Shown here piece by piece: positions 1,737 through 32,558 of a DNA stretch of 32,559 nt. The stretch is from the NCBI GenBank assembly GCA_027593305.1, contig JAQCJA010000003.1, positions 1 to 32,559 of the forward strand, given 5' to 3'. The translations under genes were made by a program, and so were the position numbers. The DNA is from a bacterium (lineage in GTDB: Bacteria; Latescibacterota; UBA2968; UBA8231). The notes beneath the pieces were generated by a model that worked only from the letters and a program-made list of their open reading frames with translations, was not told where the DNA came from and did not search any database. The stretch's first letter is position 1. Every line of letters begins with the position of its first letter.

Positions 1737-1945
1737 CGGTTCTTCACGGTGTGAACTCAACCACCCTCGTCCCCCGGGACGCCGGCGTCCAGGGCATGAG
1801 CCATACATTGAGGCAGCCTCCCAGGCCGTCGAATAAGACCACACGACGGGACGAATCCGCGAGTATGGTATCGATCTCAGCGCGACTGGCACGGATCTAG
1901 CTTGAGTCTCGGCCCAAAAAAATCTATCTTACCATCCAACCACAT

Positions 1946-1988
1946 GGTGACAGATGTCACATCGTCGTGGTTCAGGGCGCAGTATTTT
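1946..1988 (+). promoter_or_regulatory. CRP/FNR-family-like operator with class II promoter geometry
   Basis: GGTGA-CAGATG-TCACA (1946-1961) is a 9/10 match to TGTGA-N6-TCACA and contains the palindrome GTGACA-GA-TGTCAC. TATTTT at 1983-1988 as -10 puts the site centre at -41.5. Confidence 0.5.
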
Positions 1989-2079
1989 GTTGTGTGAAGC
2001 TCCAGACGGCGGGGTGCCAAACGAACGTATCTCCTGATTTCACCCTAGCTTGGCTCCTGAAAACGAACCCAAAAAGTGC

Positions 2080-2108
2080 TTGACACTCCAAAACCGCCGC
2101 AATATTAT
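2080..2108 (+). promoter_or_regulatory. Near-consensus sigma70 promoter for the 1504-aa/513-aa operon
   Basis: TTGACA (2080-2085), 17-bp spacer, TATTAT (2103-2108), with A-tracts just upstream. Predicted TSS is near 2113-2115. Confidence 0.8.
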
Positions 2109-2112
2109 AAGG

Positions 2113-2411
2113 CTCCCCTCACGCCTTCGTGGCATGGGGAGGTCTGCGTACTCCCAAATGGTGAGTGCGCTGGCTGTTATGGAACAGCAAGACAGGCCAA
2201 AAGGAATTCACAGGGTGAACCGCCGAAAGGAGGGGAAGGCGTCGAAGTCGCAAGCAATCCAAAAGAGCGGGTGTCGGTCGCTCGAGGACACTTGCCGTTG
2301 AAACCGATTCTCTCAAAAAAGCGATTCACAGTAATCTTCCTGATGGACAAGAACAACGTCCGCAGACTGCAGTTTCAAACAGGGAGCAGGGCTCCTTGAG
2401 GAGGAAAGAAG
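2113..2411 (+). ncRNA. Long structured 5' leader (candidate cis-regulatory RNA; partial c-di-GMP-I/GEMM resemblance)
   Basis: Consecutive hairpins: 2113-2141, 2146-2170, 2173-2188, 2207-2219, a GAAA-capped stem at ~2220-2233, and 2267-2295. RBS GAGGAGG at 2398-2404. Confidence 0.45.
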
Positions 2412-5400
2412 ATGCAGTATAGGAAATGCGTAGCCCTTTTTGCCGCCATGTTGGTTGGCTTCGGGGTCGTAGCTGTAGACGCCGCTACCGTCCACAGCAT
2501 CACGATCGTGTCGCCATCTGACAGCGGTGCACTCCGAGGTATTGACTCGACCTTCACAGTCCAGGCCAAAGTCCTCGATTTCACCCCGAACGATTCACTC
2601 GAGGTGATTTTTTATCTGCTGACGGCCAATGATTCGACGGTCGTGTCTGATGTCCAGAATCTCCACAGCGGCACCGGTCGAGCACTTGCCTCAATCATTG
2701 GTAAGGCTATCAAGACCACGGCTGGTGTGGCCCAGAAGGTGAGAACATCAACTGGGCAGGTTCTGAACTCGAGTTCCAGTCTTGCCGACGTAATCGTGGG
2801 CAAAGCGAAGGTCGGAACGGTTGACGAGGGTGCCCTCATCGCCGTCCGCGCCACGCGCGGCCGGGTCCTCAAAACGTCCACGTGGTTCCAGGGTGATGCG
2901 GACTCAGTTCGCGCCGTGGCCAGTTCCAACAACGATACCACGACATTTACGTGGTATGGCAAGGTTCATCACTCCAGTGGAACGGTCAACGGCATCCGAG
3001 CTGCTGCCATTTCGATCGACGGAACGGCCACGAACGTGTTGGCGGACACGACAACGCCGAAACTGTCCGCGACAAGTCTCAAGATCAATATCGACGCGGA
3101 TCGTCCGGTCGATGCGGACGCAATGGTGACTGCGACATCGGCAACGGCTCGCGGCAATCGCACCGGCTCACCGGATCTCACCATCGGCGGGCTCGCTAAC
3201 TCCGCCACAAGCGACAAGGTTCTGGGCATCAATGACACCCTGAAGTTGGATGTCAAGCTCGGATCGCAGACGGACGGAGTGTTGATCGGCGACAGTCTCA
3301 CGGTCATCGCCGATGCCTTCGGCAAGTCCTTCGTCGTGAGCAAGTCCGCACGTGCCTCCGACACCCTGCGGTGGCGTCAGGTTATCGCAGAGGGCGACTT
3401 CGCCGACTTTGTCGGTGCGGAGAATGCAAACCACTCCGACACGCTCGCTATCTACCTGGTTGACCTTGCAGGAAACCGCAGTGCTTCGACTGATAGTGCC
3501 ATCAGGGGCGTGACACTCGGCGTGACCTTCTTTGTTGACGCCAAGAAGCCAGTCCTCGACGGCCAGGTGGTCAACGGAGACACAATTCTTCCTGTCAGCA
3601 ATGACACCATTTCCGACGGCAGCCTGAATACGGGTGTCTCCCACGATCTCAATCCCGTAACCTACAATCTGCCTGAAGCCCTCGACACGCTGTTTGTCAC
3701 AGTCGGCAACACGGTGTTGAAGATCAGCAACAATGATCAGACCAAGACCAACACCGCCCTACTCAAGAGCGCGACGAAGCGTGTCAACTTCACGGCCGTC
3801 GGCAATCAGAGCGACACTCCAAGCGGCGGCGACTCTATCTTCGTCTCGAACAGCGATGGAACGTCCCCGGTCAAGTTTGGCGGCCAGGGCGGCCAGGACG
3901 TCGTAACTGGCGATAGCACAATCACCACGGGCGTGCACACCATCAAGTTCAAGGCACAGGATCTGGCCGGTAACGTTGGTCCTGAATTGACACGCACAAA
4001 TGTGTATGTCGATGTCGATGACATAAACCTTGCTCGTCTGTTCCCGACTGCAGCATCGGGGCTGGACACCTTGGAAGAAACAACAGCCAAGATCGTCTTC
4101 CGTCTGAGTGAGCACGCTGACAGCGTCCTGATCTCCTACAAGGGCATTGCCGGCAACGACAACGGTGCATCGCGTTTACGCCCGCTGGTCGGTTCCGAGC
4201 TCACCAATATCACAAGCGAGCAGACGTTCACGGTCGATTCGCTCAAGAGCAACAGCCTGTACACGCTGCAACTCATCGCGGCTGACCTGAGCGGGAACTA
4301 CACGAAGACGAGTCTCGACACCTTCGTCTACGACACAACATTCGTCGTTCCCGTCATCGCGACCTTCAAGATCACAGCCAGCTCTTCGGGTTTTGGTAGC
4401 CCGGTCCTGGCTGGAGCCAGTGTGACACTGACGCTGAAGGCTCGTACGGCTGCCGATGCGGCTGCCGTGACCTACAAAGAAGCCGCAGTACTGAAGGTCA
4501 TCGGTGGTTCGGGTGTCACGATTAAGGGAACAGGCGTCGATACTGTTGGTCTTGTAAGCGGTCGCGCAAATCTGAGTGCTGATGACTGGATCGTCGGTGA
4601 GCGTACTGTCACGCTGACTGACACGTCCTCCATCGACACTCTCGCCGTGAGCGTCCTGGACTGCACGGATATCACCAATCTCTACACCGGCAAGCTCGAT
4701 TCATCGATCGTGGTCAATCCCGCAGCCTATCAGCAGATCGCGCTGAGTGCTGCTGACACGGTTGGACAGGGCGACAATTTCTGGGTGGGCGTGACGCTGG
4801 CTGACAAGTATGGCAACACGCGCGACAAGGACAATCGCTTTGTTGAGGTCACCACCACTGCTCTCGGCGTGCAGCACCCCATCGGTGCCATCGCTGTCAC
4901 TAAGGGCACTGGCGGCTTCTGGGCCAACAGCCAGGGTTACGCAGGTAACCTCACTCTGACGGTCCGTGACATTGTTGACACGCTCAAGAGCACAGGTCCA
5001 GACGCACTGGGCAACCAGTTCACCTACGGCACACTCAGTCTGTATGTCGACGGTGATGGGGCCACGGTCCTCGCAGAGCCCGACACGCTGATCGCCCAGG
5101 ATTACATGGGCGCCAGTGGTGCAGGGGATCAGGGCGGTTTCGTCCTGCTGACCTTCCCGGCCTCTGCTGACCACAGCACGCTTACCGGTTACCGTATTTA
5201 CCGCGATATCAGCGTCGATTACGACGCCGACAGCACGGGCGCTCTTGTGGCCCTGGCTGCGCCCACCACCGCAATGGTGCCGTGGGGTCGCATCGACGCC
5301 GTTCCTGGCGAAAATGTGATGCGCGTCGTTGTCGCAACCCTCGATGGTGATGCTACCACATATGGTGTTGCAGCCGAGCGCGGCAACCTGACCACGAAGG

Positions 5401-6926
5401 AGGCCTTCGACGCCGCCGACGCCGTCAGTACGCCGTACGAGCTCATGGCTCAGACTATGTTGAAGAGCATGGAAGTCGCCCAGGCTGTCCCCGGTGCGCC
5501 AGTATTCGCCACGCTCACACCGGAGGCTCTCGCCTTCAGTGCGGAGGGTGTCGTACCGCGCCTGAAGACAGTAGAGGGTGTGCTTCTCTCCCAGGTCCGT
5601 CAGAGTGAATCCGTCAAGGCGATCGATAACATCCCGCCCGCCGCGGTTCCATTCATGCAGGCTCGGGATACCCAGGGTGACGCAGGCGGCAGTATCACTG
5701 TGCAGTGGGCCAAGTCGGTCGACGACAAGATGCTGACCACAACCGTTCCCAACGCAGTCGGTGGAGTCAATACATTCACCACCGTCGGCGTCCAGGGTTA
5801 CAATGTCTACCGTAAGCTCGGTGACGCCGCATGGCAGCTGGTTGGCCAGGCAGGCGCTGGCGAGACGTCCTTTGAGGATGCAACGGTGTTCAACGGTGTG
5901 CGCTACAGCTACAAGGTTGAAGCGCGCGACGCAGACAACGTTACCACCTCCGAGATCCAGAAGTCGGCAATGGCCATTCGCAACAATGTCGTTGATGCCA
6001 ACGGCAGCCGGATTGCCGGTCTCTTCGGCGCAGATGTCCGCGTCGACTATGACGACTTCTTCATCTTCGCGGACAACTTCGGCCTCACGGCTGGATCGGA
6101 GTCCTTTGACTCGGCCTTCGATCTGAGCCCGAACAATGCGGTCGATTTTGACGACTTCTTCGTCTTCGCCGATAACTTCGGCCGCGAGATGGTTGGGGTT
6201 GGCAAGGTTGTTCCGACGATGACGGGTCTGAACAGTGACGCACGCTACTACCTCGAAGCCGGCACTGAGTTGCCGCGCATCGGTGAAGAGTTGAGTGTCG
6301 CAGTCAGTCTCGAGGACTTCATCGAGGTTCGCGGTTATGGCCTCACTGTCGAGTTCGACAACGAGCTTCTCGAGTTTGTCGAGACGCGTGTCGTCGACAA
6401 CCTCCTGGGCGAGAAGGATCTGGCTGCACCGCAGGTCTTCGCACAGGCTGACGGCAAGGTTTCTATCGCCGCGTTCGGTAACACCGCAAGTGAAGGTGGT
6501 CTCGGCCTGAATCTGATCTTCCGCACCAGGCAGGAGATTCAGGACAGTTATATCGAGCTCACCAATGGCACCCTGCAGGACGGCACCTACGGCCTGAACC
6601 AGATCACGACTCCGGTCTCGGTACGGATTGAGACTCGTCCAGAGGTATACGCTCTGGCCGACAACTATCCGAACCCGTTCAACCCGGAGACGACGATCAA
6701 GTATCAGCTCCCGGAGGCAGGCCAGGTTCGCCTGGAGGTTTACAACATGCTCGGTCAGGCCGTGAAGACGCTGGTTGATAACCAGTTCCAGAACGCTGGC
6801 CGGTATACACTCCAGTGGGACGCCACCAACAACAGCGGGCAGCCCTTGTCCTCTGGTGTCTACTTCTACCGCATCGTTGCGGGCGGAGAGTATCAGAGTC
6901 ACAAGAAGATGCTTCTGCTGAAGTAG
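2412..6926 (+). CDS. Large secreted surface protein (S-layer/scaffoldin-like): signal peptide, Ig-like repeats, two FN3-like units, dockerin/EF-hand-like pair, cohesin-like domain, FlgD-Ig/T9SS-like C-terminal domain
   Basis: Signal MQYRKCVALFAAMLVGFGVVAVDA; rich in Thr/Val/Asp/Gly/Ala; repeated DLAGN/DLSGN/DKYGN; GDxGG..GYxxYR twice; VDYDDFFIFADNFG and VDFDDFFVFADNFG; tail DNYPNPFNPETTI..YNMLGQ..WD..SSGVYFYRI..KKMLLLK. Confidence 0.85.
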   Translation: MQYRKCVALFAAMLVGFGVVAVDAATVHSITIVSPSDSGALRGIDSTFTVQAKVLDFTPNDSLEVIFYLLTANDSTVVSDVQNLHSGTGRALASIIGKAIKTTAGVAQKVRTSTGQVLNSSSSLADVIVGKAKVGTVDEGALIAVRATRGRVLKTSTWFQGDADSVRAVASSNNDTTTFTWYGKVHHSSGTVNGIRAAAISIDGTATNVLADTTTPKLSATSLKINIDADRPVDADAMVTATSATARGNRTGSPDLTIGGLANSATSDKVLGINDTLKLDVKLGSQTDGVLIGDSLTVIADAFGKSFVVSKSARASDTLRWRQVIAEGDFADFVGAENANHSDTLAIYLVDLAGNRSASTDSAIRGVTLGVTFFVDAKKPVLDGQVVNGDTILPVSNDTISDGSLNTGVSHDLNPVTYNLPEALDTLFVTVGNTVLKISNNDQTKTNTALLKSATKRVNFTAVGNQSDTPSGGDSIFVSNSDGTSPVKFGGQGGQDVVTGDSTITTGVHTIKFKAQDLAGNVGPELTRTNVYVDVDDINLARLFPTAASGLDTLEETTAKIVFRLSEHADSVLISYKGIAGNDNGASRLRPLVGSELTNITSEQTFTVDSLKSNSLYTLQLIAADLSGNYTKTSLDTFVYDTTFVVPVIATFKITASSSGFGSPVLAGASVTLTLKARTAADAAAVTYKEAAVLKVIGGSGVTIKGTGVDTVGLVSGRANLSADDWIVGERTVTLTDTSSIDTLAVSVLDCTDITNLYTGKLDSSIVVNPAAYQQIALSAADTVGQGDNFWVGVTLADKYGNTRDKDNRFVEVTTTALGVQHPIGAIAVTKGTGGFWANSQGYAGNLTLTVRDIVDTLKSTGPDALGNQFTYGTLSLYVDGDGATVLAEPDTLIAQDYMGASGAGDQGGFVLLTFPASADHSTLTGYRIYRDISVDYDADSTGALVALAAPTTAMVPWGRIDAVPGENVMRVVVATLDGDATTYGVAAERGNLTTKEAFDAADAVSTPYELMAQTMLKSMEVAQAVPGAPVFATLTPEALAFSAEGVVPRLKTVEGVLLSQVRQSESVKAIDNIPPAAVPFMQARDTQGDAGGSITVQWAKSVDDKMLTTTVPNAVGGVNTFTTVGVQGYNVYRKLGDAAWQLVGQAGAGETSFEDATVFNGVRYSYKVEARDADNVTTSEIQKSAMAIRNNVVDANGSRIAGLFGADVRVDYDDFFIFADNFGLTAGSESFDSAFDLSPNNAVDFDDFFVFADNFGREMVGVGKVVPTMTGLNSDARYYLEAGTELPRIGEELSVAVSLEDFIEVRGYGLTVEFDNELLEFVETRVVDNLLGEKDLAAPQVFAQADGKVSIAAFGNTASEGGLGLNLIFRTRQEIQDSYIELTNGTLQDGTYGLNQITTPVSVRIETRPEVYALADNYPNPFNPETTIKYQLPEAGQVRLEVYNMLGQAVKTLVDNQFQNAGRYTLQWDATNNSGQPLSSGVYFYRIVAGGEYQSHKKMLLLK
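6018..6182 (+). repeat. Intragenic duplicated EF-hand/dockerin-like motif
   Basis: Two copies of VD[YF]DDFF[IV]FADNFG, visible at both DNA and protein level. Confidence 0.75.
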
Positions 6927-7036
6927 GCGGTAGCTTCGCGATGTAAGTGAAATGGGACCCCGCCTAGTGCGGTGGGCCAGGTGGTTATCCTGCAGTGCGA
7001 CCATTTAAGTGCTGAACAATAGAGGGGATTTACGGA

Positions 7037-8578
7037 ATGCAGACAATGCGCAGGGCCACTCCGATCGCCCTCGCCCTCTTCCTCGCACTGGTAAGCGGAG
7101 CTTTCGCTGGCGCAAATCAAGGCGTTACATTCTCGCTTACTAGTTCGGAGACGATTTCAGGGGTGGGGCCGGGTGCATCGGTCACTCTCGACATAGCCGG
7201 AAGCGGCTTCGTCGGTATCAAGAATCTGGATGTCTACGTCACGGTGTCCGACCCCGAGGCTTTTGATCTCGGGGCCGTCAGCGTGGTACCTTTCACTGGT
7301 TGGTTTCCATTGGCCGGACAACTCGTCTCTGGCACCACGGACCAAGTTCGTGTTGGCGCGGCGCTCCTGGGCGCCGGCGGTGTCACTGGCGATGGATCGT
7401 TCACCGTGACATTGACCACCTCAGCGACTTTCACGACTGAGACTGAGGCGACCGTTACGGTAACTCTGATCTCAGTGGGGCCGTCATCCAGCGACCGCGA
7501 CGAGTTCCACGGGGGGGGGGCCCCTTGGTTGGCAGTACAGCTGAACCCGCCGGTGTCGGACCCAACGTTGACCGCCTCCTCGGCAACCGACATCAGCACC
7601 GATTTCTCAAGTGTCGGTGACGGAAATGTCGCAGACGGCAGCGATGGTGAAGTCACACTCTCTGCTGTATTCGCAAACGAAACAGGTGCCGCGACGGCTG
7701 GCCAGGCAATAACATGGACCATCGTCAACAACGGATCTGAGTCGATCTTCGTGCTCGGTAGCACGGTATCCGAGATTGCGTCGGGCGCAACAAGGGTTGT
7801 CAGTGCCACCAGTGGTTCCGGTGGTGCCAGTGCGCTCGTTCTGGATGCTGAAGGTGATAAGTTCGCCGGCAGTACCAGCGCCTCGGTAACGGCAAGTACG
7901 TCCGCCGCGAACTCAGAGGGCGCAACACTGGCTCTCAGTGTTGCCTACTCTGTGACGTGGGACGTCCCGGTACCGGCTGAGTTAGCCAGTTTTGCCGCCG
8001 ATGTCACGGGCGACTCGGATGTTCAGTTGCAGTGGGCCGTCTCTTCGCAGACGAACAATCTGGGTTGGGAAGTCTATCGCAGCGCAGACAACGACGTGTT
8101 CGAGCGTGTCAGTGGCCTGATCTCTGGCGACGGTACCAGTGACACGTTCCGGACGTTTGACTTCCTCGATTCCGAGTTGCCAGCGACGGATGTCCTGTTC
8201 TACTACCTGCGTCAGATCGACCTCAACGGAACTGTTACACGCTCAAACGTCATCGAGGTCAAGTTGGCCCCGACCGCCGTGCTTGAGCAGGCGCTTCCGT
8301 TGGCGACCGCACTGGCACAGAATTTCCCGAACCCATTCAACCCCGAAACGACGATTCACTTCGACCTGGCCACGGAAAGCGGAATCAGTCTCCGCATCTT
8401 TGACATGACAGGGCAAGTGGTTCGGACTCTCGTGCGGGGCAGCCTCCCAGCTGGCAGCTACACAGAGCTCTGGGATGGTCGGAATGAGTTGGGCATCAGG
8501 GTGGGTAGCGGTGTCTACTTCTACGAGCTGCAGGCTGGTTCCTTCAGTTCCAAAAAGAAGATGACGCTTCTCCAGTAG
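7037..8578 (+). CDS. Secreted protein: signal peptide, cohesin/Ig-like domains, PxELxSF FN3-like domain, FlgD-Ig/T9SS-like tail
   Basis: RBS AGAGGGG; signal MRRATPIALALFLALVSGAFA; PVPAELASF..LQW..NNLGWEVYRS..YYLRQIDLNG; QNFPNPFNPETTI..WDGRNE..SGVYFY..KKMTLLQ. Confidence 0.85.
   Translation: MQTMRRATPIALALFLALVSGAFAGANQGVTFSLTSSETISGVGPGASVTLDIAGSGFVGIKNLDVYVTVSDPEAFDLGAVSVVPFTGWFPLAGQLVSGTTDQVRVGAALLGAGGVTGDGSFTVTLTTSATFTTETEATVTVTLISVGPSSSDRDEFHGGGAPWLAVQLNPPVSDPTLTASSATDISTDFSSVGDGNVADGSDGEVTLSAVFANETGAATAGQAITWTIVNNGSESIFVLGSTVSEIASGATRVVSATSGSGGASALVLDAEGDKFAGSTSASVTASTSAANSEGATLALSVAYSVTWDVPVPAELASFAADVTGDSDVQLQWAVSSQTNNLGWEVYRSADNDVFERVSGLISGDGTSDTFRTFDFLDSELPATDVLFYYLRQIDLNGTVTRSNVIEVKLAPTAVLEQALPLATALAQNFPNPFNPETTIHFDLATESGISLRIFDMTGQVVRTLVRGSLPAGSYTELWDGRNELGIRVGSGVYFYELQAGSFSSKKKMTLLQ
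7511..7520 (+). repeat. G10 homopolymer inside CDS
   Basis: Ten consecutive G followed by CCCC; the longest homopolymer I noticed in the window. Confidence 0.9.
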
Positions 8579-8617
8579 TTCGAATTGTCAAACTCCGGTC
8601 ATCGGAGTTGCTCGGAA

Positions 8618-8660
8618 AAGCCGCCAGTCCCAGCCGGGACTGGCGGCTTCGTTGTTTTCT
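8618..8660 (+). terminator. Intrinsic terminator closing the surface-protein operon
   Basis: 14-bp stem AAGCCGCCAGTCCC / GGGACTGGCGGCTT with 4-nt loop, followed by CGTTGTTTTCT. A smaller hairpin precedes it at 8591-8609. Confidence 0.8.
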
Positions 8661-8744
8661 CGCACGCACATGGTTGCCCACCAATTTCATCCCGGCTATA
8701 TTCGCCTCCCACACAATGGTACTCGCACGAGTGACAAGGGCCTG

Positions 8745-9440
8745 ATGAAGGTGGACGTGCTGTTTTTTGCTGGGGCGCGCGATGCCGTGGGAGCCAAGGC
8801 ACTTGAGGTCACCTTGCCTGAAGGCGCCACGGCCGGATCGCTGCTGGAAAAATTGGCGCGGCAGTACCCGGCCTTTGTCCGGATGGCCTCGTTTGCTCAG
8901 GTTGCCGTCAACGAAGACTATGTACCAAGGACACACCCCCTGAGTATGGGCGACACCGTGGCCGTGATTCCTCCGGTCAGTGGCGGCTCAGGCTCCAGAA
9001 ATTTCCAGGTAGTGGACAGGCCCATTCGTCCGGAGGAATTCCACGAACTCGTGCGCACCGATTCAGACGGAGCTATCGTCACATTCTCGGGCGTGGTTCG
9101 CGACCACACGGGTGGTCGAGAGACTTCTCATCTGCTGTATGAGGCCTACGCGCCCATGGCCGAGAAGAAGATGGCATCGTTAGCTCAGCAGGCCCGTGCC
9201 CGGTGGAGCCTGGGTGACATCGCCATGATGCACCGCGTCGGTCGCCTGGAAATCGGTGAAATTTCGATCCTCGTGAGTGTCGCCAGTCCCCACCGCGGCG
9301 GGGCATTCGAGGCCTGCCAGTTTCTCATCGATCGTCTCAAAGCCGAAGTCCCCGTCTGGAAGAAGGAAGTGGGACCCAGTGGCGACTTCTGGGTGGAGGG
9401 TCCCGGCGATCACACCCCGGCCCAGGTCGGTCCGCAGTGA
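8745..9440 (+). CDS. moaE: Fused molybdopterin synthase MoaD-MoaE (MoaX-type)
   Basis: MKVDVLFFAGAR..AVNEDY..VAVIPPVSGG (MoaD) joined in frame to GAIVTFSGVVR..HRVGRL..SPHR..LKAEVPVWKKE (MoaE). The ATG at 8745 is preferred. Confidence 0.9.
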   Translation: MKVDVLFFAGARDAVGAKALEVTLPEGATAGSLLEKLARQYPAFVRMASFAQVAVNEDYVPRTHPLSMGDTVAVIPPVSGGSGSRNFQVVDRPIRPEEFHELVRTDSDGAIVTFSGVVRDHTGGRETSHLLYEAYAPMAEKKMASLAQQARARWSLGDIAMMHRVGRLEIGEISILVSVASPHRGGAFEACQFLIDRLKAEVPVWKKEVGPSGDFWVEGPGDHTPAQVGPQ

Positions 9441-12153: not shown

Positions 12154-14275
12154 TCTTCTCGACGCCGCTCTCCGCCTCGACGCCGTCTGGCCATGGTTGC
12201 TGCCTCTGCCGCCGATGGTATTGTTTGCCAACCTTGTGTATCGGTGGACACGCCCCCCCGTGGCCCAGTCTCGGGTTGTCCTGCTCTGGTTACTCCGAGC
12301 CGCAACTTTCGCAATTGTCGTGCTGCTTCTGGCAGAGCCCGTTCTATCCTATCTCGCCCGGCGGGCACTGCGACCCGGAGTTGTGACGCTCGTTGACGCG
12401 AGCCCATCAATGGATGTCGAAGAGAGGGGTGTAACGCGCCTTGATCGAATCCGGAGATCCATGGCGGATGGACTCGCAGAGGCTCTTGTCGGGCCGGTAA
12501 GAGCGTTCTCTGCATCCGTGCAGGATATCGATCCGGATACCCTTGATCGACTCCACTCTTCTGGCAAAGCCACGGATCTGGCCGCCGCGCTGGCGTCCGT
12601 CCTTGACGAGGCCGCCGACCCACGACTGTTGAGCGCCATCGTCCTGATCACAGACGGCAGGCACAATCTGGGCCCAGACCCGGTCCGCCTCGCCAGCGAG
12701 CACGGAACGCCCATCCATGTTCTCGGCGTGACCTCAGAGACGAGCCCCGATGATGTGCAGGTTCTGGGTCTCGAAATCGACGACCAACCCTTTGCCGGGA
12801 AGCCGATACGACTCCTGGCGCGTCTGCGGAGTTGGGGCTTTCAAGACAGCACGGTGACTTTGCGGCTGGAAGAAGGCGAGCAAATTCTCAGTCAAGTCGA
12901 GATCCCACTCGCTGTCGACGGGCAGGTGCAGCCTGTGGCATTGTCGACGCCCCCCATGAGTCCCGGTCCTCACCTTCTCCAATTGTATGTTGTGCCCAGG
13001 GCCGGGGAACTGACGCCGCACAACAACCAGTCTCTGTTGGCCCTTAATGTCAGGCAGAGCCGGCTTCGCATCCTGCTGCTTGCGGATCGACCGAACCCCG
13101 AATCAGGCTTCGTCCGGCGGACATTAATGGCTGATTCGACGCTGCAGGTTGACGCGTTCATCGGCCGCGGCGAGGCCGCCTACTACGGTGGCGCCCCGAT
13201 ACCGACTGCTTTCGGAGGGTACGACGCCGTCGTTGTGTTGTCCCCCGAGGGGCCGCTCGACACGCTGCCTGAAGCCTTGCAGGCCTACCTGACCGATGGG
13301 GGAGGCACCCTGATTCAGACGCTGGCCAGCGACACAGGCGCGTCCTCCGAGACGTGGTCCGATATTCTGCCCACTGTGACAGAGACAGGTACTGCGGACG
13401 TGCACGATCAGGCGCCCCTTCACCTTGTACCCGAAACGCGCAATCACCCGATTCATCGTGGTATGACGAGAAACGTCTCCGAGGATCCCTGGCAACGATT
13501 GCCGCCGTTGCAGGCACGAACACCCCGAGTTCGGGTGAAGCCAACCGCAAAGGTCCTGTTGGCAGCAGCCGACGGTGCTCCCGTTGTGGTGGCTGGTGCC
13601 TACGGTACGGGCCGCGTCGTACATGTCACAGGAACAGGATTCTGGCGTCAAAGCCTGTTCGGTGAGGGGGCGGGCGGCGACGCCAGGACCGTCCCCGCGT
13701 TCTGGCGGAGTGCCGTCCACTGGCTGGCTTTGGCCGAGTCCGGAGGACGCGTGCAGGCCTCTGCCGAGCAACCGGTATACCGATCCGGACAACCGGCTGC
13801 AGTTACGGCGCAGGTATTCGATGAACTGCAGGAGCCACTCACAGACGCTGAAGTCGAACTCTCCCTCTCTCCGGGGGGCCGTTCCATCATCCTGGAGCCA
13901 ACGGTCCCGGGCCACTACCGGACTGAACTTCCAGATCTCGCTGCTGGCACCTACACCTTCCTGGTCCGGGCCCGGATCGGCATGGAGAGCATTGGTCAGA
14001 CGGAGGGCTCATTCGTCATTGAAGACCATACGATTGAGTCCGACGATCTGCGATCCGATCCCGAGATGCTTGCTGCGATTGCCCGCGCCAGCGGCGGCAC
14101 CTATCGAGGGATCGAGGCCTGGCCGGATCTGGTCCAGACCATCCGCCCAACGCCGATTCTCGTACGCGAGCAGCAGGACATCGGGGTGAAGATTCACCAC
14201 ATGGGTTGGCTCTTGCTGCTGACAGGGCTGTTGACGACGGAGTGGATTCTGCGCAAGCGCTCGGGTATGCTGTGA
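12146..14275 (+). CDS. Membrane-anchored vWA-domain protein with Ig-like and GATase-like regions
   Basis: N-terminal TM pair (LLRAATFAIVVLLLAEP), MIDAS DASPSM..TDL..ITDG, and C-terminal TM EWILRKRSGML. Confidence 0.8.
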   Translation: MSDLLDAALRLDAVWPWLLPLPPMVLFANLVYRWTRPPVAQSRVVLLWLLRAATFAIVVLLLAEPVLSYLARRALRPGVVTLVDASPSMDVEERGVTRLDRIRRSMADGLAEALVGPVRAFSASVQDIDPDTLDRLHSSGKATDLAAALASVLDEAADPRLLSAIVLITDGRHNLGPDPVRLASEHGTPIHVLGVTSETSPDDVQVLGLEIDDQPFAGKPIRLLARLRSWGFQDSTVTLRLEEGEQILSQVEIPLAVDGQVQPVALSTPPMSPGPHLLQLYVVPRAGELTPHNNQSLLALNVRQSRLRILLLADRPNPESGFVRRTLMADSTLQVDAFIGRGEAAYYGGAPIPTAFGGYDAVVVLSPEGPLDTLPEALQAYLTDGGGTLIQTLASDTGASSETWSDILPTVTETGTADVHDQAPLHLVPETRNHPIHRGMTRNVSEDPWQRLPPLQARTPRVRVKPTAKVLLAAADGAPVVVAGAYGTGRVVHVTGTGFWRQSLFGEGAGGDARTVPAFWRSAVHWLALAESGGRVQASAEQPVYRSGQPAAVTAQVFDELQEPLTDAEVELSLSPGGRSIILEPTVPGHYRTELPDLAAGTYTFLVRARIGMESIGQTEGSFVIEDHTIESDDLRSDPEMLAAIARASGGTYRGIEAWPDLVQTIRPTPILVREQQDIGVKIHHMGWLLLLTGLLTTEWILRKRSGML

Positions 14276-15117
14276 GAGCTGCTCCGCCGATGTTCTTCCT
14301 GGCTCTCTATATCGCAAGCCCAGGGGCCCTGTGCGGGCAGGCCCGGCTCTCGGAAGTCATGACCGATCCGTTGGGAAGCGAGCCCCACGACGAGTTTGTC
14401 GAGATCTACAACGCCAGCCAGACAGACACGATCGACCTGGCTGGCTGGTCTCTGGGCAATGGCGATGAGATCGACAGAATCATCGCCCTCCGGAACGGCA
14501 CGAGGCTGCAACCAGGAGGGTTCGCCCTGGTGCTGGATGGCAGCTATGCGGGCGCCTCGACGACGTATGATTCGGTGCGAGAGTCCGTCACAATCGTTAC
14601 TATTGAGGACCGCGCATTTGGCAGATCAGGGTGGTCCAATTCGGCACACGAACAAGTGATTCTCGTGGATGCCGCCGGTGATACGGCCGACATGTTTTCC
14701 TACGACCCCGTTGCCAGTCGCGCCGGCCATTCGTGGGAGCGCCGAACCGACTCGCGATGGCAGTTGTCGTTGTGGGTAGGTGGCACACCGGGGCAGCAGA
14801 ACAGTGTCGATCAGGCACCCGCGGAGACGGGCCGTATCGTTATGGACCGGTCGCCCGATCCATTTGTTGAGAGCCTGCAGATTGTCTGTCACCTGCCCTT
14901 TGCACCGGCTCTGCTGTCGGTGACGGTTTACGACACCGAGGGCAACCTTGTACTGCGTTTGCGCGACTGGGAGCCAGCCGTCTTCGAGCAGACCATCCGC
15001 TGGGACGGTCGAACAGCATCGGGGCAATTTTGTCCCCCAGGTTTGTACATTCTGTTGGCCAGGGCCAGTGCTGAGGGACGGACCGTTCACGAAAAAGTAA
15101 CCGTCTCCCGGCAGTGA
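14272..15117 (+). CDS. Lamin-tail-domain protein with FlgD-Ig-like C-terminal domain
   Basis: LSEVMTDP..DEFVEIYN..IDLAGWSL..SWER..GTPG (LTD), then SPDPF..VYDTEG..WDGR..PGLYI. A GTG at 14272 overlaps the upstream TGA. Confidence 0.8.
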   Translation: MRAAPPMFFLALYIASPGALCGQARLSEVMTDPLGSEPHDEFVEIYNASQTDTIDLAGWSLGNGDEIDRIIALRNGTRLQPGGFALVLDGSYAGASTTYDSVRESVTIVTIEDRAFGRSGWSNSAHEQVILVDAAGDTADMFSYDPVASRAGHSWERRTDSRWQLSLWVGGTPGQQNSVDQAPAETGRIVMDRSPDPFVESLQIVCHLPFAPALLSVTVYDTEGNLVLRLRDWEPAVFEQTIRWDGRTASGQFCPPGLYILLARASAEGRTVHEKVTVSRQ

Positions 15118-23711: not shown

Positions 23712-24236
23712 ATGATCTGTGACATCTGCAACAAGCGCCAGGCAACGATCGAGTTCACGGCAATCGCAGGGGACGCGAAAAAGACGCTGCACCTTTGCCA
23801 GGAGTGCTCCAAACAGCAGGGCCAGAAAACGGAACCCGTGAAGCTGGCGCATGTGCCGACGGATGCGAAGAAAGTGGATGTCGTCATCGGCCAGCTGGCT
23901 GGTGCCGAGGCAGGCAAGGGTCTGTGTCCGGGCTGCGGTATGACGTATGAGGAGTTCCGCAAGGTTGGCCGCCTGGGTTGTTCGCAGTGCTACGCAGCTT
24001 TCGGTACACCTCTGCGGCGACTGTTGAAACGCATCCACGGATCCGATCTGCATGTCGGCCGCGGTCCCAGGGCGCCCACTCCGGTTCCCGAGCATGGGGA
24101 CTCCCGAACAGGCACGACGGCTGTCAACGCAGAAGATCTGCGCTCGGAACTGGCAGCAGCTGTCAATGCCGAAGACTACGAACGAGCGGCGGATCTGCGC
24201 GATCGCATCGCCCGCCTGCAGGAAGAGGGCTCTTGA
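23712..24236 (+). CDS. mcsA: Protein-arginine kinase activator McsA
   Basis: Four CxxC motifs (CDIC, CQEC, CPGC, CSQC), GRLGC..CY..F, IHG...HVG, and UVR tail EDYERAADLRD. Confidence 0.93.
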   Translation: MICDICNKRQATIEFTAIAGDAKKTLHLCQECSKQQGQKTEPVKLAHVPTDAKKVDVVIGQLAGAEAGKGLCPGCGMTYEEFRKVGRLGCSQCYAAFGTPLRRLLKRIHGSDLHVGRGPRAPTPVPEHGDSRTGTTAVNAEDLRSELAAAVNAEDYERAADLRDRIARLQEEGS

Positions 24237-24255
24237 AAGAGGCGGGCTCTTGAAA
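24222..24255 (+). repeat. 17-bp tandem duplication at mcsA/mcsB junction
   Basis: GAAGAGGGCTCTTGAAA / GAGGCGGGCTCTTGAAA are 15/17 identical, with a perfect 12-bp core GGGCTCTTGAAA. Confidence 0.85.
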
Positions 24256-25311
24256 CTCGATTCCCTGATCCGGACGGCTCCAAGCTGGATGAGCGGCGAC
24301 GGCGACGCGGATGGTATTGTCATCAGCTGCCGGGCTCGCCTGGCGCGCAATCTCGCCGGCTACCCCTTTGGCACACGTATCACGCAAACTCAGCAGCAAC
24401 AGGTCATCGACGAGGTCCTTGCGGCGGCCAAGACGAGCCGTTCGATGAGTACGGCCACGTACTTCGGGATGAGCGTGCTCGACGGCAACGAGCGCAGGGT
24501 GTTGGTGGAACGGCACCTCATCAGTCCGACTCTGGCAGACGAGAAGGGCGAGCGTGGGGTTCTGTTCAATCAGGACGAATCACTAAGTGTGATGATCAAT
24601 GAAGAAGATCACCTGCGCCTGCAGGCGATTTCACCCGGTACTCGGGGCCGGGATGCCTTTGCCGCGATCTGTGCGCTGGATGACGAGTTACTCAATGCAG
24701 TCAACTGCGCGCACGATCCGAGAATCGGATTCCTCACAGCCTGTCCGACGAACACGGGAACGGGCCTGCGTCTTTCTGTTCTGATGCATCTGCCGGCCCT
24801 CGTTCTTACAGAAGACATGGAGCGAGTTTTGCAGGGGTTGAGTCACTTGTCCTTCACCGTCAGAGGCGTATACGGTGAAGGCTCCAATGCGGCAGGAAAT
24901 CTCTTCCAGATATCGAACCAGGCGACGCTTGGTGCCTCGGAACAGAGCATCCTTGAGGGGTTGCTGCGTATTGCCGAGCAACTGATAGGTTACGAAAGAG
25001 ACGCCCAGGACTCGTTGACGAAGGAAGCCCGGGGACAGATGGAAGACAAGGTGTGGCGCGCCTACGGCATTCTGTCCCACGCCCGAATCCTGACGAGCCA
25101 GGAGTTCATGAATCTGTTGTCAGCGGTGCGACTGGGGTGCACCCTCGGGGTTGTGCAGGGCATACCCTCAGGGTTCCTCAATCACCTCATGATCGCCACT
25201 CAGCCCTCCCACTTACGGGCTGAAGCTGGGCGTGGACTGACCCCGGCGGAACGCGACTTGCGGCGCGCCGACCTGGTCCGAGAGAAACTGTCGCAAGTTA
25301 ATAATTCATAG
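24250..25311 (+). CDS. mcsB: Protein-arginine kinase McsB
   Basis: RARLARNL, LVERHLISP, MINEEDHLRLQ, GFLTACPTNTGTGLR, VRGVYGEGS, FQISNQATLG. Probable start is the TTG at 24250. Confidence 0.95.
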   Translation: MKLDSLIRTAPSWMSGDGDADGIVISCRARLARNLAGYPFGTRITQTQQQQVIDEVLAAAKTSRSMSTATYFGMSVLDGNERRVLVERHLISPTLADEKGERGVLFNQDESLSVMINEEDHLRLQAISPGTRGRDAFAAICALDDELLNAVNCAHDPRIGFLTACPTNTGTGLRLSVLMHLPALVLTEDMERVLQGLSHLSFTVRGVYGEGSNAAGNLFQISNQATLGASEQSILEGLLRIAEQLIGYERDAQDSLTKEARGQMEDKVWRAYGILSHARILTSQEFMNLLSAVRLGCTLGVVQGIPSGFLNHLMIATQPSHLRAEAGRGLTPAERDLRRADLVREKLSQVNNS

Positions 25312-25346
25312 GTACTTGAGAGGCTTCGACCGGGCTTGCCCGAACC

Positions 25347-25375
25347 TTGACACTTCGAAAGCACCTGTGTAGTTT
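25347..25375 (+). promoter_or_regulatory. Internal sigma70-like promoter upstream of clpC
   Basis: TTGACA (25347-25352), 17-bp spacer, TAGTTT (25370-25375); GGAGG RBS before the ATG at 25421. Confidence 0.6.
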
Positions 25376-25420
25376 GAGCCAAGCCAATCAACTGGCCCAA
25401 TTATCTGGAGGTCGCGGTAC

Positions 25421-31445: not shown

Positions 31446-32558
31446 CTACTTCAGCATCATCATCTTTCCGGTGTCTGAGAAATTCGCCGTCGTCAGGCGG
31501 TAGAAATAGAGCCCGTTACCCACAGCATGCCCGGACGCATCTCGACCATCCCAGGTAACGGAGTAGAACCCCGCCGGCAGCTCTGATTCTGCGTGGACCA
31601 GGGTGCGAATGGCTCTGCCAAGCACATCATATATCACGAGACGAGCCGCGGATTCTGCTGCCAGGGAAAAGTCGATCTGCGTAGACGGGTTGAACGGGTT
31701 GGGGTAGGCATCGCCAAGGGCGAAAACCGAGGGCCGCAATCGTGTCGATTCGACGGCAGCGACGCGTCTGACATCATTGACATCCCCCGCGATAAAAGCC
31801 TGCTGCAGATCAAAGCGAGTGTCTGTCGCCAGGTGTCGATCCCGTAAACGGAAGGTCAGTTCTGCCAGGAGCCCCGATCCTGAGACTGGTTCACCCGTCA
31901 CGAGGCCGCTGCCAATTAGCAATCGACCCGGGCGGTCATCTAGGACCCCGAAGAGCCCTGCATCGCCACCCCGACTCTCCAGCAATGACCCAGGACCCTC
32001 CTTTGCCTCGGTGAAGGTCAAGGCAGCGGGGTCATAGCTGATGACGAGACCGAAGGCTGCGACCTTTTCTACGTCGTCGGCAAAAATACGAAGGCGAACA
32101 ATGTCGCGGGGCAGACCATCCGCCGCCGCTTGTGTCATGGGGCCACCACTGGCGACCAGTCGCAGTCTGGCAGTCTCGTCAAGTCGACGAGCAAAAGCCC
32201 AGGTGCCTGCCGACTTTCCGGCACTCGTGCCAAAAGCATCCACGAAGGCGAAGAAATCATCAAAATCAATGAAGCTGCCTGATCCGGAGCCGTTCAGATC
32301 GAAGGCGGGAAAGTCGTCGGCAGATTGACCAAAGGCGTCGACGAATGCAAAGAAATCATCAAAATCGACGGCGCCGGAGTCATTGAAGTCACCTGCCAGA
32401 AGCGGGGCGGATGACACCTGGAACTCCTGAGCCGCGGTGAAGGGCCCGGTCAACGTTCCTTCCATGGCCCGCACTCGCCAGAAGTATGTTTCCCCGTCCG
32501 TCAAAGATCGCGTGATCGTCCATGATGTCTCACCGGCGCCCTCGGTCAACCCCGATTC
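31446..32558 (-). CDS. Secreted protein C-terminus: FN3-like, dockerin/EF-hand-like pair, cohesin-like, FlgD-Ig/T9SS-like tail; 5' truncated by window edge
   Basis: Frame is open to the window edge. TYFWRVRA; GDFNDSGAVDFDDFFAFVDAFG and FDLNGSG..IDFDDFFAFVDAFG; AFGLVISYDPAALTF..VSGSGLLAELTF; AYPNPFNPST..WDGRD..GLYFYRL..KMMMLK. Confidence 0.88.
   Translation of the reverse strand, partial: ESGLTEGAGETSWTITRSLTDGETYFWRVRAMEGTLTGPFTAAQEFQVSSAPLLAGDFNDSGAVDFDDFFAFVDAFGQSADDFPAFDLNGSGSGSFIDFDDFFAFVDAFGTSAGKSAGTWAFARRLDETARLRLVASGGPMTQAAADGLPRDIVRLRIFADDVEKVAAFGLVISYDPAALTFTEAKEGPGSLLESRGGDAGLFGVLDDRPGRLLIGSGLVTGEPVSGSGLLAELTFRLRDRHLATDTRFDLQQAFIAGDVNDVRRVAAVESTRLRPSVFALGDAYPNPFNPSTQIDFSLAAESAARLVIYDVLGRAIRTLVHAESELPAGFYSVTWDGRDASGHAVGNGLYFYRLTTANFSDTGKMMMLK

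What the first reader, a model, noticed from the sequence alone, without database searches (positions are those of the whole stretch)
6018..6926. Shared dockerin-like + cohesin-like + sorting-tail module: candidate self-assembling surface-lattice system
Seen: the 1504-aa protein and the protein 25 kb away (31446-32558, minus) end in the same three-part cassette. It consists of a duplicated Ca-loop motif (VD[YF]DDFFxFxDxFG x2), a ~130-aa beta-domain with a cohesin-like pattern (V.V.L.....G..L.V.[FY]D...L.F), and an xPNPFNP FlgD-Ig/T9SS-like tail ending KMxxLK. Known: dockerins are duplicated EF-hand-like units that bind cohesins. Inference: a plug and a socket on the same chain would allow head-to-tail polymerisation, or let cargo proteins clip onto an abundant scaffold. 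This would be a non-cellulosomal modular surface display system. The Phe-rich helix (FFxF) differs from classical dockerins and may define a new class.
Basis: partly seen in the sequence, partly recalled or inferred. Interest (0 to 1): 0.8.

Follow-up and report, generated by a model that had tools for sequence, protein, structure and literature searches.

The report
Dockerin-cohesin tail on T9SS surface proteins
Two secreted surface proteins of an uncultured Latescibacterota bacterium end in a real dockerin plug, a real cohesin socket and a type IX secretion tag, a tail that is common in this phylum and probably links surface proteins together, although no binding has been tested.

Summary
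The 1504-aa protein (2412..6926, +) and the 5'-cut protein (31446..32558, -) both end in two D[FY]DDFFxFxDxFG repeats, a ~140-aa beta domain and a C-terminal sorting domain.

All three module names are supported:
- Dockerin: family profiles match solved dockerins (E 5e-12, 5.5e-8).
- Cohesin: profiles match solved cohesins (E 1e-7, 2e-10). The AlphaFold2 model (pLDDT 92) superposes on cohesins (Z 15.7, rmsd 2.0 A).
- Tail: it passes the T9SS type-A cut-offs.

The tail is a fixed-spacing unit. It occurs in 94 of 151 proteins examined and in 93 of 121 genomes sampled from the phylum.

The genome also encodes dockerin-only and cohesin-only proteins, so a non-cellulosomal surface assembly network is the likeliest reading.

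Self-polymerisation is untested: the complex predictor was unavailable. The pTM values (0.84-0.85) suggest the dockerin rests on its own cohesin.

The "new dockerin class" idea fails: NCBIfam's GC-type dockerin model matches 14 of 14 members.

Cohesin-dockerin sets with T9SS tails, and self-recognising cohesin-plus-dockerin proteins, are already published. This scan also flagged the same tail on other DNA. I rate it a new variant of a known kind.

The parts
2412..6926 (+). Gene for the 1504-aa surface protein (P0001). It has an N-terminal Sec-type signal peptide (read by eye: MQYRKCVALFAAMLVGFGVVAVDA), about 1180 aa of ectodomain with no known family, then the three-part tail.
   Evidence: Pfam finds nothing above cut-off in residues 1-1202. 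phmmer of residues 1-1202 against PDB sequences gives 0 hits at E<=1. Orthologues of 54-100% identity are named only 'T9SS type A sorting domain-containing protein', 'FlgD immunoglobulin-like domain containing protein' or 'hypothetical protein'.
6018..6197 (+). Dockerin module (protein residues 1203-1262), made of two EF-hand-like repeats. Repeat 1 motif is at 6042-6083 and repeat 2 motif at 6141-6182. The loop-1 Ca ligands are degenerate (L,G,D,D,D at loop positions 1,3,5,9,12). Loop 2 is canonical (D,S,N,D,D).
   Evidence: Profile of 14 such modules against PDB: dockerin 2y3n_B at E 5.5e-8, aligned over 57 of 60 positions. A1 profile: 5e-12. NF041540 dockerin_GC scores 16.1 bits for this copy, below the 29-bit cut-off. 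AF2 helices at 11-19 and 44-52 of the cassette. Loop analysis.
6198..6233 (+). Short linker plus the conserved N-terminal extension of the cohesin (G-K-x-V...G-x-N). K63 of the cassette is K in 89% of 124 cassettes.
   Evidence: Column statistics. The same GK..V...GLN stretch precedes the cohesin in cohesin-CTD proteins that lack a dockerin (P0047). pLDDT is 63-73 here.
6219..6641 (+). Cohesin module (cassette residues about 68-208), a beta-sandwich.
   Evidence: A1 profile against PDB: C. perfringens NagJ cohesin at 9.8e-8 and ScaB cohesin 3l8q_A at 2.9e-7. Cohesin-only profile A4: 3l8q_A at 2e-10 and 2jh2_A at 1.2e-7, and 19 of 20 hits at E<=0.001 are cohesin chains. Foldseek: 2jh2_A with TM(target) 0.81 and rmsd 2.2 A. 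VIA-align: 2jh2_C with Z 15.7 and rmsd 2.0 A over 125 residues, and rows 1-42 are all cohesins.
6642..6926 (+). T9SS type-A C-terminal sorting domain (FlgD-Ig-like fold) ending in KKMLLLK, plus the stop codon.
   Evidence: TIGR04183 scores 39.4 bits (cut-off 23), PF18962 32.3 bits (cut-off 27) and PF13860 37.5 bits (cut-off 27). PDB: PorU C-terminal part 6za2_A.
31446..32558 (-). Second gene (P0002), cut at its 5' end by the contig end. It encodes an FN3-like remnant, a dockerin (32217-32393, both Ca loops canonical), a cohesin (31731-32186) and a T9SS CTD (31449-31727).
   Evidence: Pfam Cohesin scores 18.5 bits (E 0.0025), below the gathering score of 24.1. NF041540 gives E 4.3e-4. TIGR04183 scores 32.8 bits, above its cut-off.

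Best explanation
The cassette is a genuine dockerin-cohesin-T9SS-CTD tail. It is a fixed-spacing unit that Latescibacterota and other FCB-group bacteria place at the C-terminus of many large, mostly non-enzymatic surface proteins.

Shown here: the identity of the three modules, the conserved spacing, the spread across the phylum, and the presence of SprA, PorV and a PorU-like gene in this genome.

Inferred mechanism:
- The signal peptide takes the protein across the inner membrane.
- The CTD takes it through the T9SS and is removed by the PorU-type sortase. This leaves the cohesin, with the dockerin beside it, at the end nearest the outer membrane.
- The dockerin (Ca-dependent plug) and cohesin (socket) then join surface proteins non-covalently.
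- The cassette's cohesin can take dockerins of secreted dockerin-only proteins. In this genome these are a heparinase II/III-like lyase and Ig-like, FN3 and LRR proteins.
- The cassette's dockerin can plug into cohesins of neighbours, either its own kind or cohesin-CTD proteins that lack a dockerin.
- In the isolated monomer the dockerin probably rests against its own cohesin. Assembly would then be an exchange from cis to trans contacts.

The outcome would be a non-cellulosomal surface display and cross-linking network, not an enzyme machine.
For: Module identity.

Fixed unit:
- 94 of 151 proteins examined (150 database representatives plus P0002) are Doc-Coh-CTD, and 14 more are Coh-Doc-Coh-CTD.
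- Doc-to-Coh spacing lies within a 9-residue range in 114 of 125 cases. Coh-to-CTD spacing is identical in 103 of 117.

Network parts in the same genome (76% complete): 10 open frames with a dockerin, 8 with a cohesin and 66 with the CTD. These include cohesin-CTD without dockerin (C194, C257, C355), dockerin-only C-termini (C64, C214, C127, C599) and the reverse order Coh-Doc-CTD (C587).

One complete related chromosome has 18 cohesin matches but only 7 dockerin matches, so most sockets have no intact plug on their own chain.

The two dockerin repeats are kept alike within each protein. The top four direct-coupling pairs are equivalent positions 21-54, 15-48, 18-51 and 11-44 (z 7-11). Identity at positions 11/44, 15/48 and 18/51 is well above shuffled expectation. 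Recalled, not tested here: this is the pattern of dual-binding-mode dockerins that work in trans.

T9SS parts: SprA_N scores 118 bits, PorV gives 3 matches over cut-off, and a PorU-like frame scores 200 bits.

Published precedents:
- A cohesin scaffoldin with a T9SS CTD plus dockerin enzymes was proposed for Ca. Stygibacter (PMC8542988, passages read).
- The R. bromii Amy4 cohesin binds its own dockerin in array, ELISA and pull-down (PMC4611034, abstract and passages).

Contigs of four RNA libraries cover the gene at 90-99% likeness.
Against: - No binding was predicted or measured.
- The pTM of the Doc-Coh model (0.84 for 210 residues) and of the whole tail (0.85 for 302) is higher than I would expect if the 60-residue dockerin floated freely. 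By my own estimate from the pTM formula, a floating dockerin would give about 0.7. This suggests a cis-packed state that could leave neither module free. I could not see PAE or coordinates.
- Loop 1 of this protein's dockerin lacks two canonical Ca ligands. Only 43 of 124 cassettes keep a canonical loop 1.
- Direct-coupling analysis gave only weak, scattered Doc-Coh pairs: 15 of the top 100, with none forming a coherent patch.
- Dockerin-only proteins lack a T9SS tail, and I did not work out how they cross the outer membrane.
- The RNA-library contigs do not prove transcription, because DNA carry-over is possible and I laid no silent control.
Confidence: 0.45

Rival explanations
1. Cis-locked pedestal. 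The dockerin binds only the cohesin next to it on the same chain. The pair is a rigid, Ca-stabilised base module in front of the T9SS cleavage site, and it never engages other proteins.
For: pTM is 0.84-0.85 in two separate AF2 runs, which implies a confident Doc-Coh orientation (inference from pTM only). Spacing is short and nearly constant, and the Lys in the joining stretch is conserved (K63, 89%). In a large paralogue group only a degenerate half-dockerin helix (DFGDLSSLFGGAGK in L021) is kept in front of the cohesin, as if that helix were part of the cohesin unit.
Against: Dockerin-only and cohesin-only proteins exist in the same genomes and would have no partner. A single fixed cis contact does not need the two dockerin repeats to be kept symmetric. 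Other orders occur, such as Coh-Doc-CTD, Coh-Doc-Coh-CTD and five-cohesin proteins.
Confidence: 0.3
2. Cellulosome-like enzyme machine. The cohesins collect dockerin-tagged polysaccharide-degrading enzymes on the cell surface, as proposed for Cloacimonadota and (as cited by others) for Latescibacteria.
For: One dockerin protein carries a heparinase II/III-like lyase domain (Hepar_II_III_C, E 4.5e-15) and one has a weak CBM96-like hit. PMC7081726 cites Farag et al. 2017 for 'cellulosome-affiliated enzymes' in Latescibacteria (one passage read). PMC8542988 makes the proposal for Ca. Stygibacter.
Against: Only 1 of 10 dockerin open frames has an enzyme domain, and the rest are Ig-like, FN3, LRR or unknown. 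Every cohesin protein of this genome has a single cohesin, with no multi-cohesin scaffoldin and no scaffoldin CBM. In the complete relative the dockerins sit almost only in the giant cassette proteins (5 of 7) and in two small FN3 proteins.
Confidence: 0.08
3. The modules have drifted to other uses. The cohesin acts as the Ig-like spacer that T9SS cargo usually has before the CTD, and the dockerin acts as a Ca-binding stabiliser or a binder of a non-protein ligand.
For: Loop 1 is degenerate in 81 of 124 cassettes. Beta-sandwich neighbours such as integrin domains score Z 11.7, not far below the cohesins. No interaction evidence exists.
Against: The dockerin helices are among the most conserved columns: D13 is D in 100%, F14 in 89%, F47 in 89% and G55 in 91% of 124 cassettes. 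The cohesin is recognisably a cohesin at sequence level, not only by fold. Dockerin and cohesin co-occur at fixed spacing in 94 of 151 proteins.
Confidence: 0.12

Closest known systems
Cellulosome-like cohesin-dockerin set with a T9SS CTD proposed for Candidatus Stygibacter (Cloacimonadota), Williams et al. 2021, PMC8542988 (passages read)
   Same: [quoted passage not shown] It is inferred from genomes only.
   Different: That system has one 3,755-aa scaffoldin with tandem cohesins and CBM2/CBM3, and the dockerins sit on enzymes (GH18, GH57, peptidases). Here a single dockerin and a single cohesin sit side by side at fixed spacing on the same chain, directly before the CTD. They are on many mostly non-enzymatic giant proteins, with no CBM-bearing scaffoldin.
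Ruminococcus bromii Amy4 of the amylosome, Ze et al. 2015, PMC4611034 (abstract and passages read)
   Same: A cohesin and a dockerin on one polypeptide. That paper measured that the cohesin binds its own protein's dockerin and discusses multimerisation.
   Different: Amy4 is from a Gram-positive bacterium and is an enzyme (GH13). It is anchored via a sortase-linked Sca2, and its cohesin and dockerin are not an adjacent fixed unit. No T9SS is involved.
Clostridium perfringens non-cellulosomal cohesin-dockerin pairs (NagJ cohesin 2jh2/2o4e/2ozn; NagH dockerin 2jnk)
   Same: These are the best structural and near-best sequence matches of the cohesin (Z 15.7; E about 1e-7). They are non-cellulosomal and have a single cohesin per protein.
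   Different: They link secreted glycoside hydrolases of a Gram-positive pathogen. They have no surface-sorting tail, and cohesin and dockerin are on different proteins (their roles are recalled, not tested here).
NCBIfam NF041540 'GC-type dockerin domain-anchored protein'
   Same: All 14 of 14 dockerins scanned match it at E<=1 (best 1.3e-8). A curated model therefore already covers this Phe-rich dockerin type.
   Different: The copy in the 1504-aa protein scores 16.1 bits, below the 29-bit cut-off. I could not read the model's description or its member architectures.
Earlier notes of this scan: e1-1433343 (Calditrichota/KSB1-like) and e1-2850935 (Ignavibacteria-type)
   Same: They describe the same dockerin-cohesin-T9SS-signal tail on T9SS cargo, also read as a general surface assembly device.
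   Different: They concern other phyla and other proteins. Here I add the census across Latescibacterota, the spacing statistics, the repeat symmetry and the socket-to-plug counts.

Membership tests
Dockerin (Pfam PF00404 Dockerin_1; NCBIfam NF041540 GC-type dockerin) | Two tandem segments of about 22 residues, each an EF-hand-like loop followed by a helix | tested here: met
   Two motif copies 33 residues apart. AF2 helices at 11-19 and 44-52 with pLDDT above 90. Full-length profile alignment to dockerin 2y3n_B.
Dockerin (Pfam PF00404 Dockerin_1; NCBIfam NF041540 GC-type dockerin) | Significant sequence similarity to known dockerins, or a score over the curated cut-off | tested here: inconclusive
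   By profile the feature is met: 2y3n_B at E 5e-12 (A1) and 5.5e-8 (A2). By single sequence it falls below cut-off: P0001's copy scores 16.1 bits against 29 for NF041540 and has no Dockerin_1 hit at E<=1. Among 14 family members, 14 match NF041540 (best 1.3e-8) and 3 match Dockerin_1 (best 7.5e-5). The C587 dockerin passes Dockerin_1 (23.0 against 22.9 bits).
Dockerin (Pfam PF00404 Dockerin_1; NCBIfam NF041540 GC-type dockerin) | Ca-ligand residues at loop positions 1, 3, 5, 9 and 12 in both repeats (positions recalled from the EF-hand/dockerin literature) | tested here: inconclusive
   In P0001, loop 2 reads D,S,N,D,D (met) and loop 1 reads L,G,D,D,D (two ligands missing). In P0002 both loops are canonical. 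Among 124 cassettes, loop 1 is canonical in 43 and loop 2 in 95.
Dockerin (Pfam PF00404 Dockerin_1; NCBIfam NF041540 GC-type dockerin) | Ca-dependent binding to a cohesin | not tested
   Complex prediction was queued, lost and then unavailable. This needs bench work.
Cohesin (Pfam PF00963) | Beta-sandwich of about 140 residues with the cohesin topology | tested here: met
   AF2 pLDDT is above 90 across residues 76-205. VIA-align gives Z 15.7, rmsd 2.0 A and 125 aligned residues to 2jh2_C. Rows 1-42 are all cohesins, and the first other fold scores Z 11.7. Foldseek TM(target) is 0.81.
Cohesin (Pfam PF00963) | Sequence similarity to known cohesins, or a score over the Pfam gathering score | tested here: inconclusive
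   By profile the feature is met: NagJ cohesin at 9.8e-8 and 3l8q_A at 2e-10, with 19 of 20 PDB hits being cohesins. By single sequence it is below threshold: P0002 scores 18.5 against 24.1 bits, and P0001 has no hit. Some orthologues carry a precomputed PF00963 hit.
Cohesin (Pfam PF00963) | Binds a dockerin on the 8-3-6-5 face (recalled) | not tested
   No coordinates or complex model were available. Direct-coupling analysis was inconclusive.
T9SS type-A C-terminal sorting domain (TIGR04183 / PF18962) | Score over the curated cut-off, at the extreme C-terminus | tested here: met
   TIGR04183 scores 39.4 and 32.8 bits (cut-off 23). PF18962 scores 32.3 bits (cut-off 27) for P0001. Both domains end at the last residues.
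T9SS type-A C-terminal sorting domain (TIGR04183 / PF18962) | T9SS machinery encoded in the same genome | tested here: inconclusive
   SprA_N scores 118 bits, over its cut-off. PorV gives 3 matches over cut-off. A PorU-like frame scores 200 bits, below the 420-bit equivalog cut-off. GldM_1st was not found, but the genome is 76% complete and that model did not pass its cut-off in any control genome. I did not search for GldK, GldL or GldN.
Cellulosome (scaffoldin-based enzyme complex) | Scaffoldin with several cohesins and a CBM, and dockerins mainly on carbohydrate-active enzymes | tested here: not met
   All 8 cohesin open frames of this genome have one cohesin. Only 1 of 10 dockerin open frames has an enzyme domain. 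Multi-cohesin relatives (P0048, P0152) exist elsewhere.

The most novel reading that the evidence does not exclude
The fixed-spacing dockerin-cohesin pair in front of the T9SS signal is a self-complementary unit. Its linker is too short for a canonical intramolecular fit, so on the cell surface it swaps partners with neighbours. This zips dozens of different giant cargo proteins (up to 21 paralogues in one genome) into a Ca-dependent, S-layer-like lattice on the outer membrane of Latescibacterota and other FCB-group phyla. That would be a surface-coat principle not described for diderm bacteria.
Probability: 0.2. Interest if true: 0.75.

Novelty: new variant of a known kind. Interest (0 to 1): 0.42.

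Why it matters
Latescibacterota and their FCB-group relatives are uncultured, and their cell surfaces are unknown. A tail that combines plug, socket and export tag is present in about three quarters of the sampled genomes of the phylum, with up to 21 copies in one genome. It would be a main organiser of their surface and a ready-made Ca-switchable display module for Gram-negative hosts. Public annotation names these proteins only as T9SS or FlgD-Ig proteins, so the cohesin-dockerin content is currently invisible in databases. The value is limited for three reasons: the modules and the general idea are known, the same tail was already flagged by this scan on other DNA, and the key claim (who binds whom) is still untested.

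Tried and rejected
- Complex prediction (cohesin 66-208 against dockerin 1-62 of the cassette, both as alignments). The queue was full (the hand-ins came too soon after a full-queue answer and were not sent on). The job was accepted, lost, and the tool was declared unavailable. No verdict of any kind.
- Direct-coupling analysis for Doc-Coh contacts (Meff 105 and 119). Inter-domain pairs were weak and scattered (V42-F101, S37-T123, F54-S149 and others), so I treat this as inconclusive.
- Single-sequence searches were too weak to decide. Pfam gave no dockerin hit and only a sub-threshold cohesin hit. phmmer against PDB gave dockerin 2y3n_B at E 0.069.
- The ESM Atlas could not read the protein or a stored homologue.
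- Peer et al. 2009 (PMC3035643) is not held, so what I say of it is recalled or taken from papers that cite it.
- The N-terminal 1202 residues gave no PDB sequence match and no Pfam family over cut-off.
- I looked for an operon link. The neighbours are housekeeping genes (MoaE, TsaD, FtsK, LolA, S8 protease, RF2, LolCDE-like ABC, McsB/ClpC, BamA, Skp, FabZ), so there is no dedicated locus.
- Literature searches for this tail in print: 'cohesin + dockerin + type IX secretion' gave 10 papers, of which only Williams 2021 is relevant. 'Latescibacteria + cohesin + dockerin' gave 0. 'Latescibacteria + cellulosome' gave 9. Names of FCB phyla with cohesin/dockerin gave 12 listed papers, none relevant by title.
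- Parts of the window without RNA-contig cover say nothing.
Full report
**Observation.** The window is contig C265 of a 4.93-Mb, 688-contig metagenome-assembled genome estimated at 76% complete. ORF 2412..6926 (+) encodes a 1504-aa protein. The 5'-open ORF 31446..32558 (-) encodes at least 370 aa.
- two copies of a D[FY]DDFFxFxDxFG motif 33 residues apart;
- a beta-rich domain of about 140 residues;
- a tail starting YPNPFNP and ending KMLLLK or KMMMLK.

BLASTP of the two proteins gives 31% identity over 227 residues, E 1e-27. The motif pattern occurs in only 6 of 46,167 six-frame open frames of 60 aa or more in the genome.

**What the three parts are.**
- Single-sequence searches are weak. 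Pfam finds only the tail (FlgD_ig, Por_Secre_tail) and a sub-threshold Cohesin hit in the second protein (18.5 against 24.1 bits). NCBIfam finds TIGR04183 over its cut-off and a sub-threshold 'GC-type dockerin'.
- An exhaustive HMMER search with the dockerin-plus-cohesin part found 937 cluster representatives at E<=0.001 and 41 at E<=1e-30.
- A profile of 40 of these (A1) matched solved structures clearly. Dockerin 2y3n_B scored 5e-12 and X-dockerins 4u3s_B and 3kcp_A scored 4.8e-10 and 3.9e-8. The C. perfringens NagJ cohesin scored 9.8e-8, ScaB cohesin 3l8q_A 2.9e-7 and FlgD 8.7e-5.
- A dockerin-only profile (A2) gave 5.5e-8 to 2y3n_B over 57 of 60 positions.
- A cohesin-only profile (A4) gave 2e-10 to 3l8q_A, and 19 of its 20 hits are cohesins.
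- AlphaFold2 with A1 gave mean pLDDT 92.0 and pTM 0.85. It shows two helices in the dockerin part and strands throughout the rest.
- Foldseek puts cohesins on top (2jh2_A, TM 0.81, rmsd 2.2 A).
- The VIA-align second look gives Z 15.7, rmsd 2.0 A over 125 residues. Rows 1-42 are all cohesins before the first other fold at Z 11.7.

**The dockerin type.** All 14 of 14 dockerins scanned match NCBIfam NF041540 (GC-type dockerin) at E<=1, best 1.3e-8. Three of 14 match Pfam Dockerin_1. The Phe-rich helix is thus covered by an existing curated model and is not a new class.

In the 1504-aa protein and its orthologues the first Ca loop reads GLFGAD.RV and lacks two canonical ligands. The second loop is canonical, as are both loops of the second protein. 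Among 124 cassettes, loop 1 is canonical in 43 and loop 2 in 95.

**A fixed unit.** I examined 151 proteins (150 representatives plus the window's second protein).
- 94 are Doc-Coh-CTD, 14 are Coh-Doc-Coh-CTD, 9 are Doc-Coh and 4 are Coh-CTD. Two carry five cohesins before the CTD.
- Doc-to-Coh spacing falls within a nine-residue range in 114 of 125 cases.
- Coh-to-CTD spacing is identical in 103 of 117.
- The stretch GK.V...G.N between the modules is conserved (K in 89% of 124 cassettes). It is also present in cohesin-CTD proteins without a dockerin, so it belongs to the cohesin.

**Who has it.** The closest public records are Candidatus Latescibacterota MAGs, the best at 87% identity. In a sample of 121 genomes of the phylum (G000 included):
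- 93 have a match at E<=1e-10;
- 36 of the 52 high-quality genomes have one;
- by family the counts are f1 37/40, f2 29/29, f3 12/13, f10 0/13 and f8 0/5;
- one 4.2-Mb genome has 21 copies.

Orthologues are named in public sources only as T9SS or FlgD-Ig proteins or as hypothetical.

**The rest of the system in this genome.** Home-made HMMs over all six-frame open frames find 10 with a dockerin, 8 with a cohesin and 66 with the CTD. Besides the two Doc-Coh-CTD proteins of the window there are:
- Coh-Doc-CTD (C587) and a 1346-aa Coh-Doc protein (C190);
- Coh-CTD (C194, C257, C355);
- N-terminal cohesins (C560, C256);
- proteins ending in a dockerin: a heparinase II/III-like lyase (C64), a weak CBM96-like protein (C214), an Ig-like protein (C127) and an FN3 protein (C599);
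- a dockerin-LRR protein (C305).

Only one of the ten is an enzyme, so this is not a cellulosome.

One complete related chromosome has 18 cohesin matches but 7 dockerin matches. Five dockerins sit in giants of about 1900 aa, and two sit in small secreted FN3 proteins. Thirteen cohesins sit in proteins of about 1430-1530 aa. In the one such protein I read (locus L021), only a degenerate half-dockerin helix precedes the cohesin. Sockets without their own plug are thus common.

T9SS parts are present: SprA, PorV and a PorU-like frame. GldM_1st was not found in this incomplete genome. The window's neighbours are housekeeping genes.

**How it most likely works.** Shown: module identity, spacing, spread, and the coexistence of plug-only and socket-only proteins. 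Inferred: Sec export, T9SS transit, removal of the CTD by the PorU-type sortase and attachment near the outer membrane. Dockerin-cohesin contacts would then tie surface proteins together and hang dockerin-only proteins onto anchored cohesins.

Two observations bear on cis against trans binding.
- First, pTM is 0.85 for the whole tail and 0.84 for the 210-residue Doc-Coh part. By my estimate from the pTM formula, a freely floating 60-residue dockerin would give about 0.7. The models therefore probably place the dockerin against its own cohesin. I could not see PAE or coordinates, so I do not know which face it contacts.
- Second, the two dockerin repeats are kept alike within each protein. The four strongest direct couplings are the equivalent positions 21-54, 15-48, 18-51 and 11-44 (z 7-11). 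Identity at positions 11/44, 15/48 and 18/51 is 0.73-0.77 against 0.37-0.51 after shuffling. As I recall it, such internal symmetry is the mark of dual-binding-mode dockerins that act in trans. A permanent single cis contact would not need it.

Inter-domain couplings were weak and scattered.

The decisive in-silico test did not run. I therefore give the trans-assembly network 0.45, a cis-locked pedestal 0.30, drifted functions 0.12 and an enzyme machine 0.08.

**Expression.** Contigs of four RNA libraries from four studies, labelled sediment or aquatic, cover 15-28 of 30 bins of window 2000-9000 at 90-99% likeness. One example covers 6294-6716 with 14 differences in 423 letters. This fits transcription of close orthologues but does not exclude DNA carry-over.

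**What is known.**
- Williams et al. [quoted passage not shown] It has dockerin enzymes and a multi-cohesin scaffoldin that carries a conserved CTD for surface attachment.
- PMC7081726 cites Farag et al. 2017 for cellulosome-affiliated enzymes in Latescibacteria (one passage). I did not read Farag et al.
- Ze et al. 2015 (PMC4611034) measured that the R. bromii Amy4 cohesin binds Amy4's own dockerin and discussed multimerisation.
- Peer et al. 2009 on non-cellulosomal cohesins and dockerins is not held.
- My searches found no paper describing the adjacent Doc-Coh-CTD unit as such. Supplements were closed.
- This scan has already flagged the same tail on other DNA (e1-1433343, e1-2850935).

**Verdict.** It is a new variant of a known kind of system. 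The attractive part, a self-assembling lattice, is still open.

Noticed in passing
window 7037-8578 (+): The 513-aa ORF directly downstream of the 1504-aa gene also ends in a T9SS-type tail (FlgD_ig E 1e-8) and has no other Pfam family. It is another T9SS cargo gene next door.
   Followed up: partly
window 23712-27886 (+): A UVR-motif protein, an ATP:guanido phosphotransferase (McsB-like, E 6e-61) and a ClpC-type AAA+ protein lie in a row. This is the arginine-phosphorylation quality-control set best known from Firmicutes (role recalled), here in a Latescibacterota genome.
   Followed up: no
window 14206-15117 (+): A 303-aa ORF has a lamin-tail domain (LTD, E 5.9e-14). It follows a 709-aa ORF with no Pfam family.
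   Followed up: no
G000 contig C64: 2184-4691 (+) and 5685-9809 (-): The dockerin-tagged heparinase II/III-like lyase gene lies convergent to the genome's PorU-like (T9SS sortase-like) 1591-aa frame on the same 10.4-kb contig.
   Followed up: partly
G092 and G001 (related genomes; loci L018-L024): The cassette proteins form large paralogue families. G092 (4.2 Mb) has 21 matches: 11 giants of about 1880-1945 aa with a full dockerin, and 10 of about 1413-1547 aa that match only from residue 21-23 on. In the one protein of this second kind that I read (L021, from G001, with many tandem repeats in its ectodomain), only a degenerate half-dockerin helix remains before the cohesin.
   Followed up: partly
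L105 (G001:C1:1994500-1999500), ORFs 1880-2617 (-) and 2617-3279 (-): Two adjacent small secreted proteins (245 and 220 aa; signal peptide, FN3-like part, dockerin) lie between a rho-like and a dnaG-like gene (identified by eye from their translations). They are the only dockerin-only proteins found in that complete genome.
   Followed up: partly
window 6018-6197 and 124 related cassettes: Equivalent positions of the two dockerin repeats co-vary more strongly than any other residue pair in the Doc-Coh unit (z 7-11). The cause could be concerted evolution or selection for a symmetric, dual-mode plug.
   Followed up: yes
window 2412-6017 (+): The 1202-residue ectodomain in front of the tail has no Pfam family over cut-off and no PDB sequence match at E<=1. 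It is nonetheless conserved at 54-100% identity in more than 100 database clusters. Its function is unknown.
   Followed up: partly
window 4701-7004 (-): A 767-aa open frame runs antisense across the 3' half of the 1504-aa gene. In DNA of about 59% G+C this is most likely a shadow frame.
   Followed up: no
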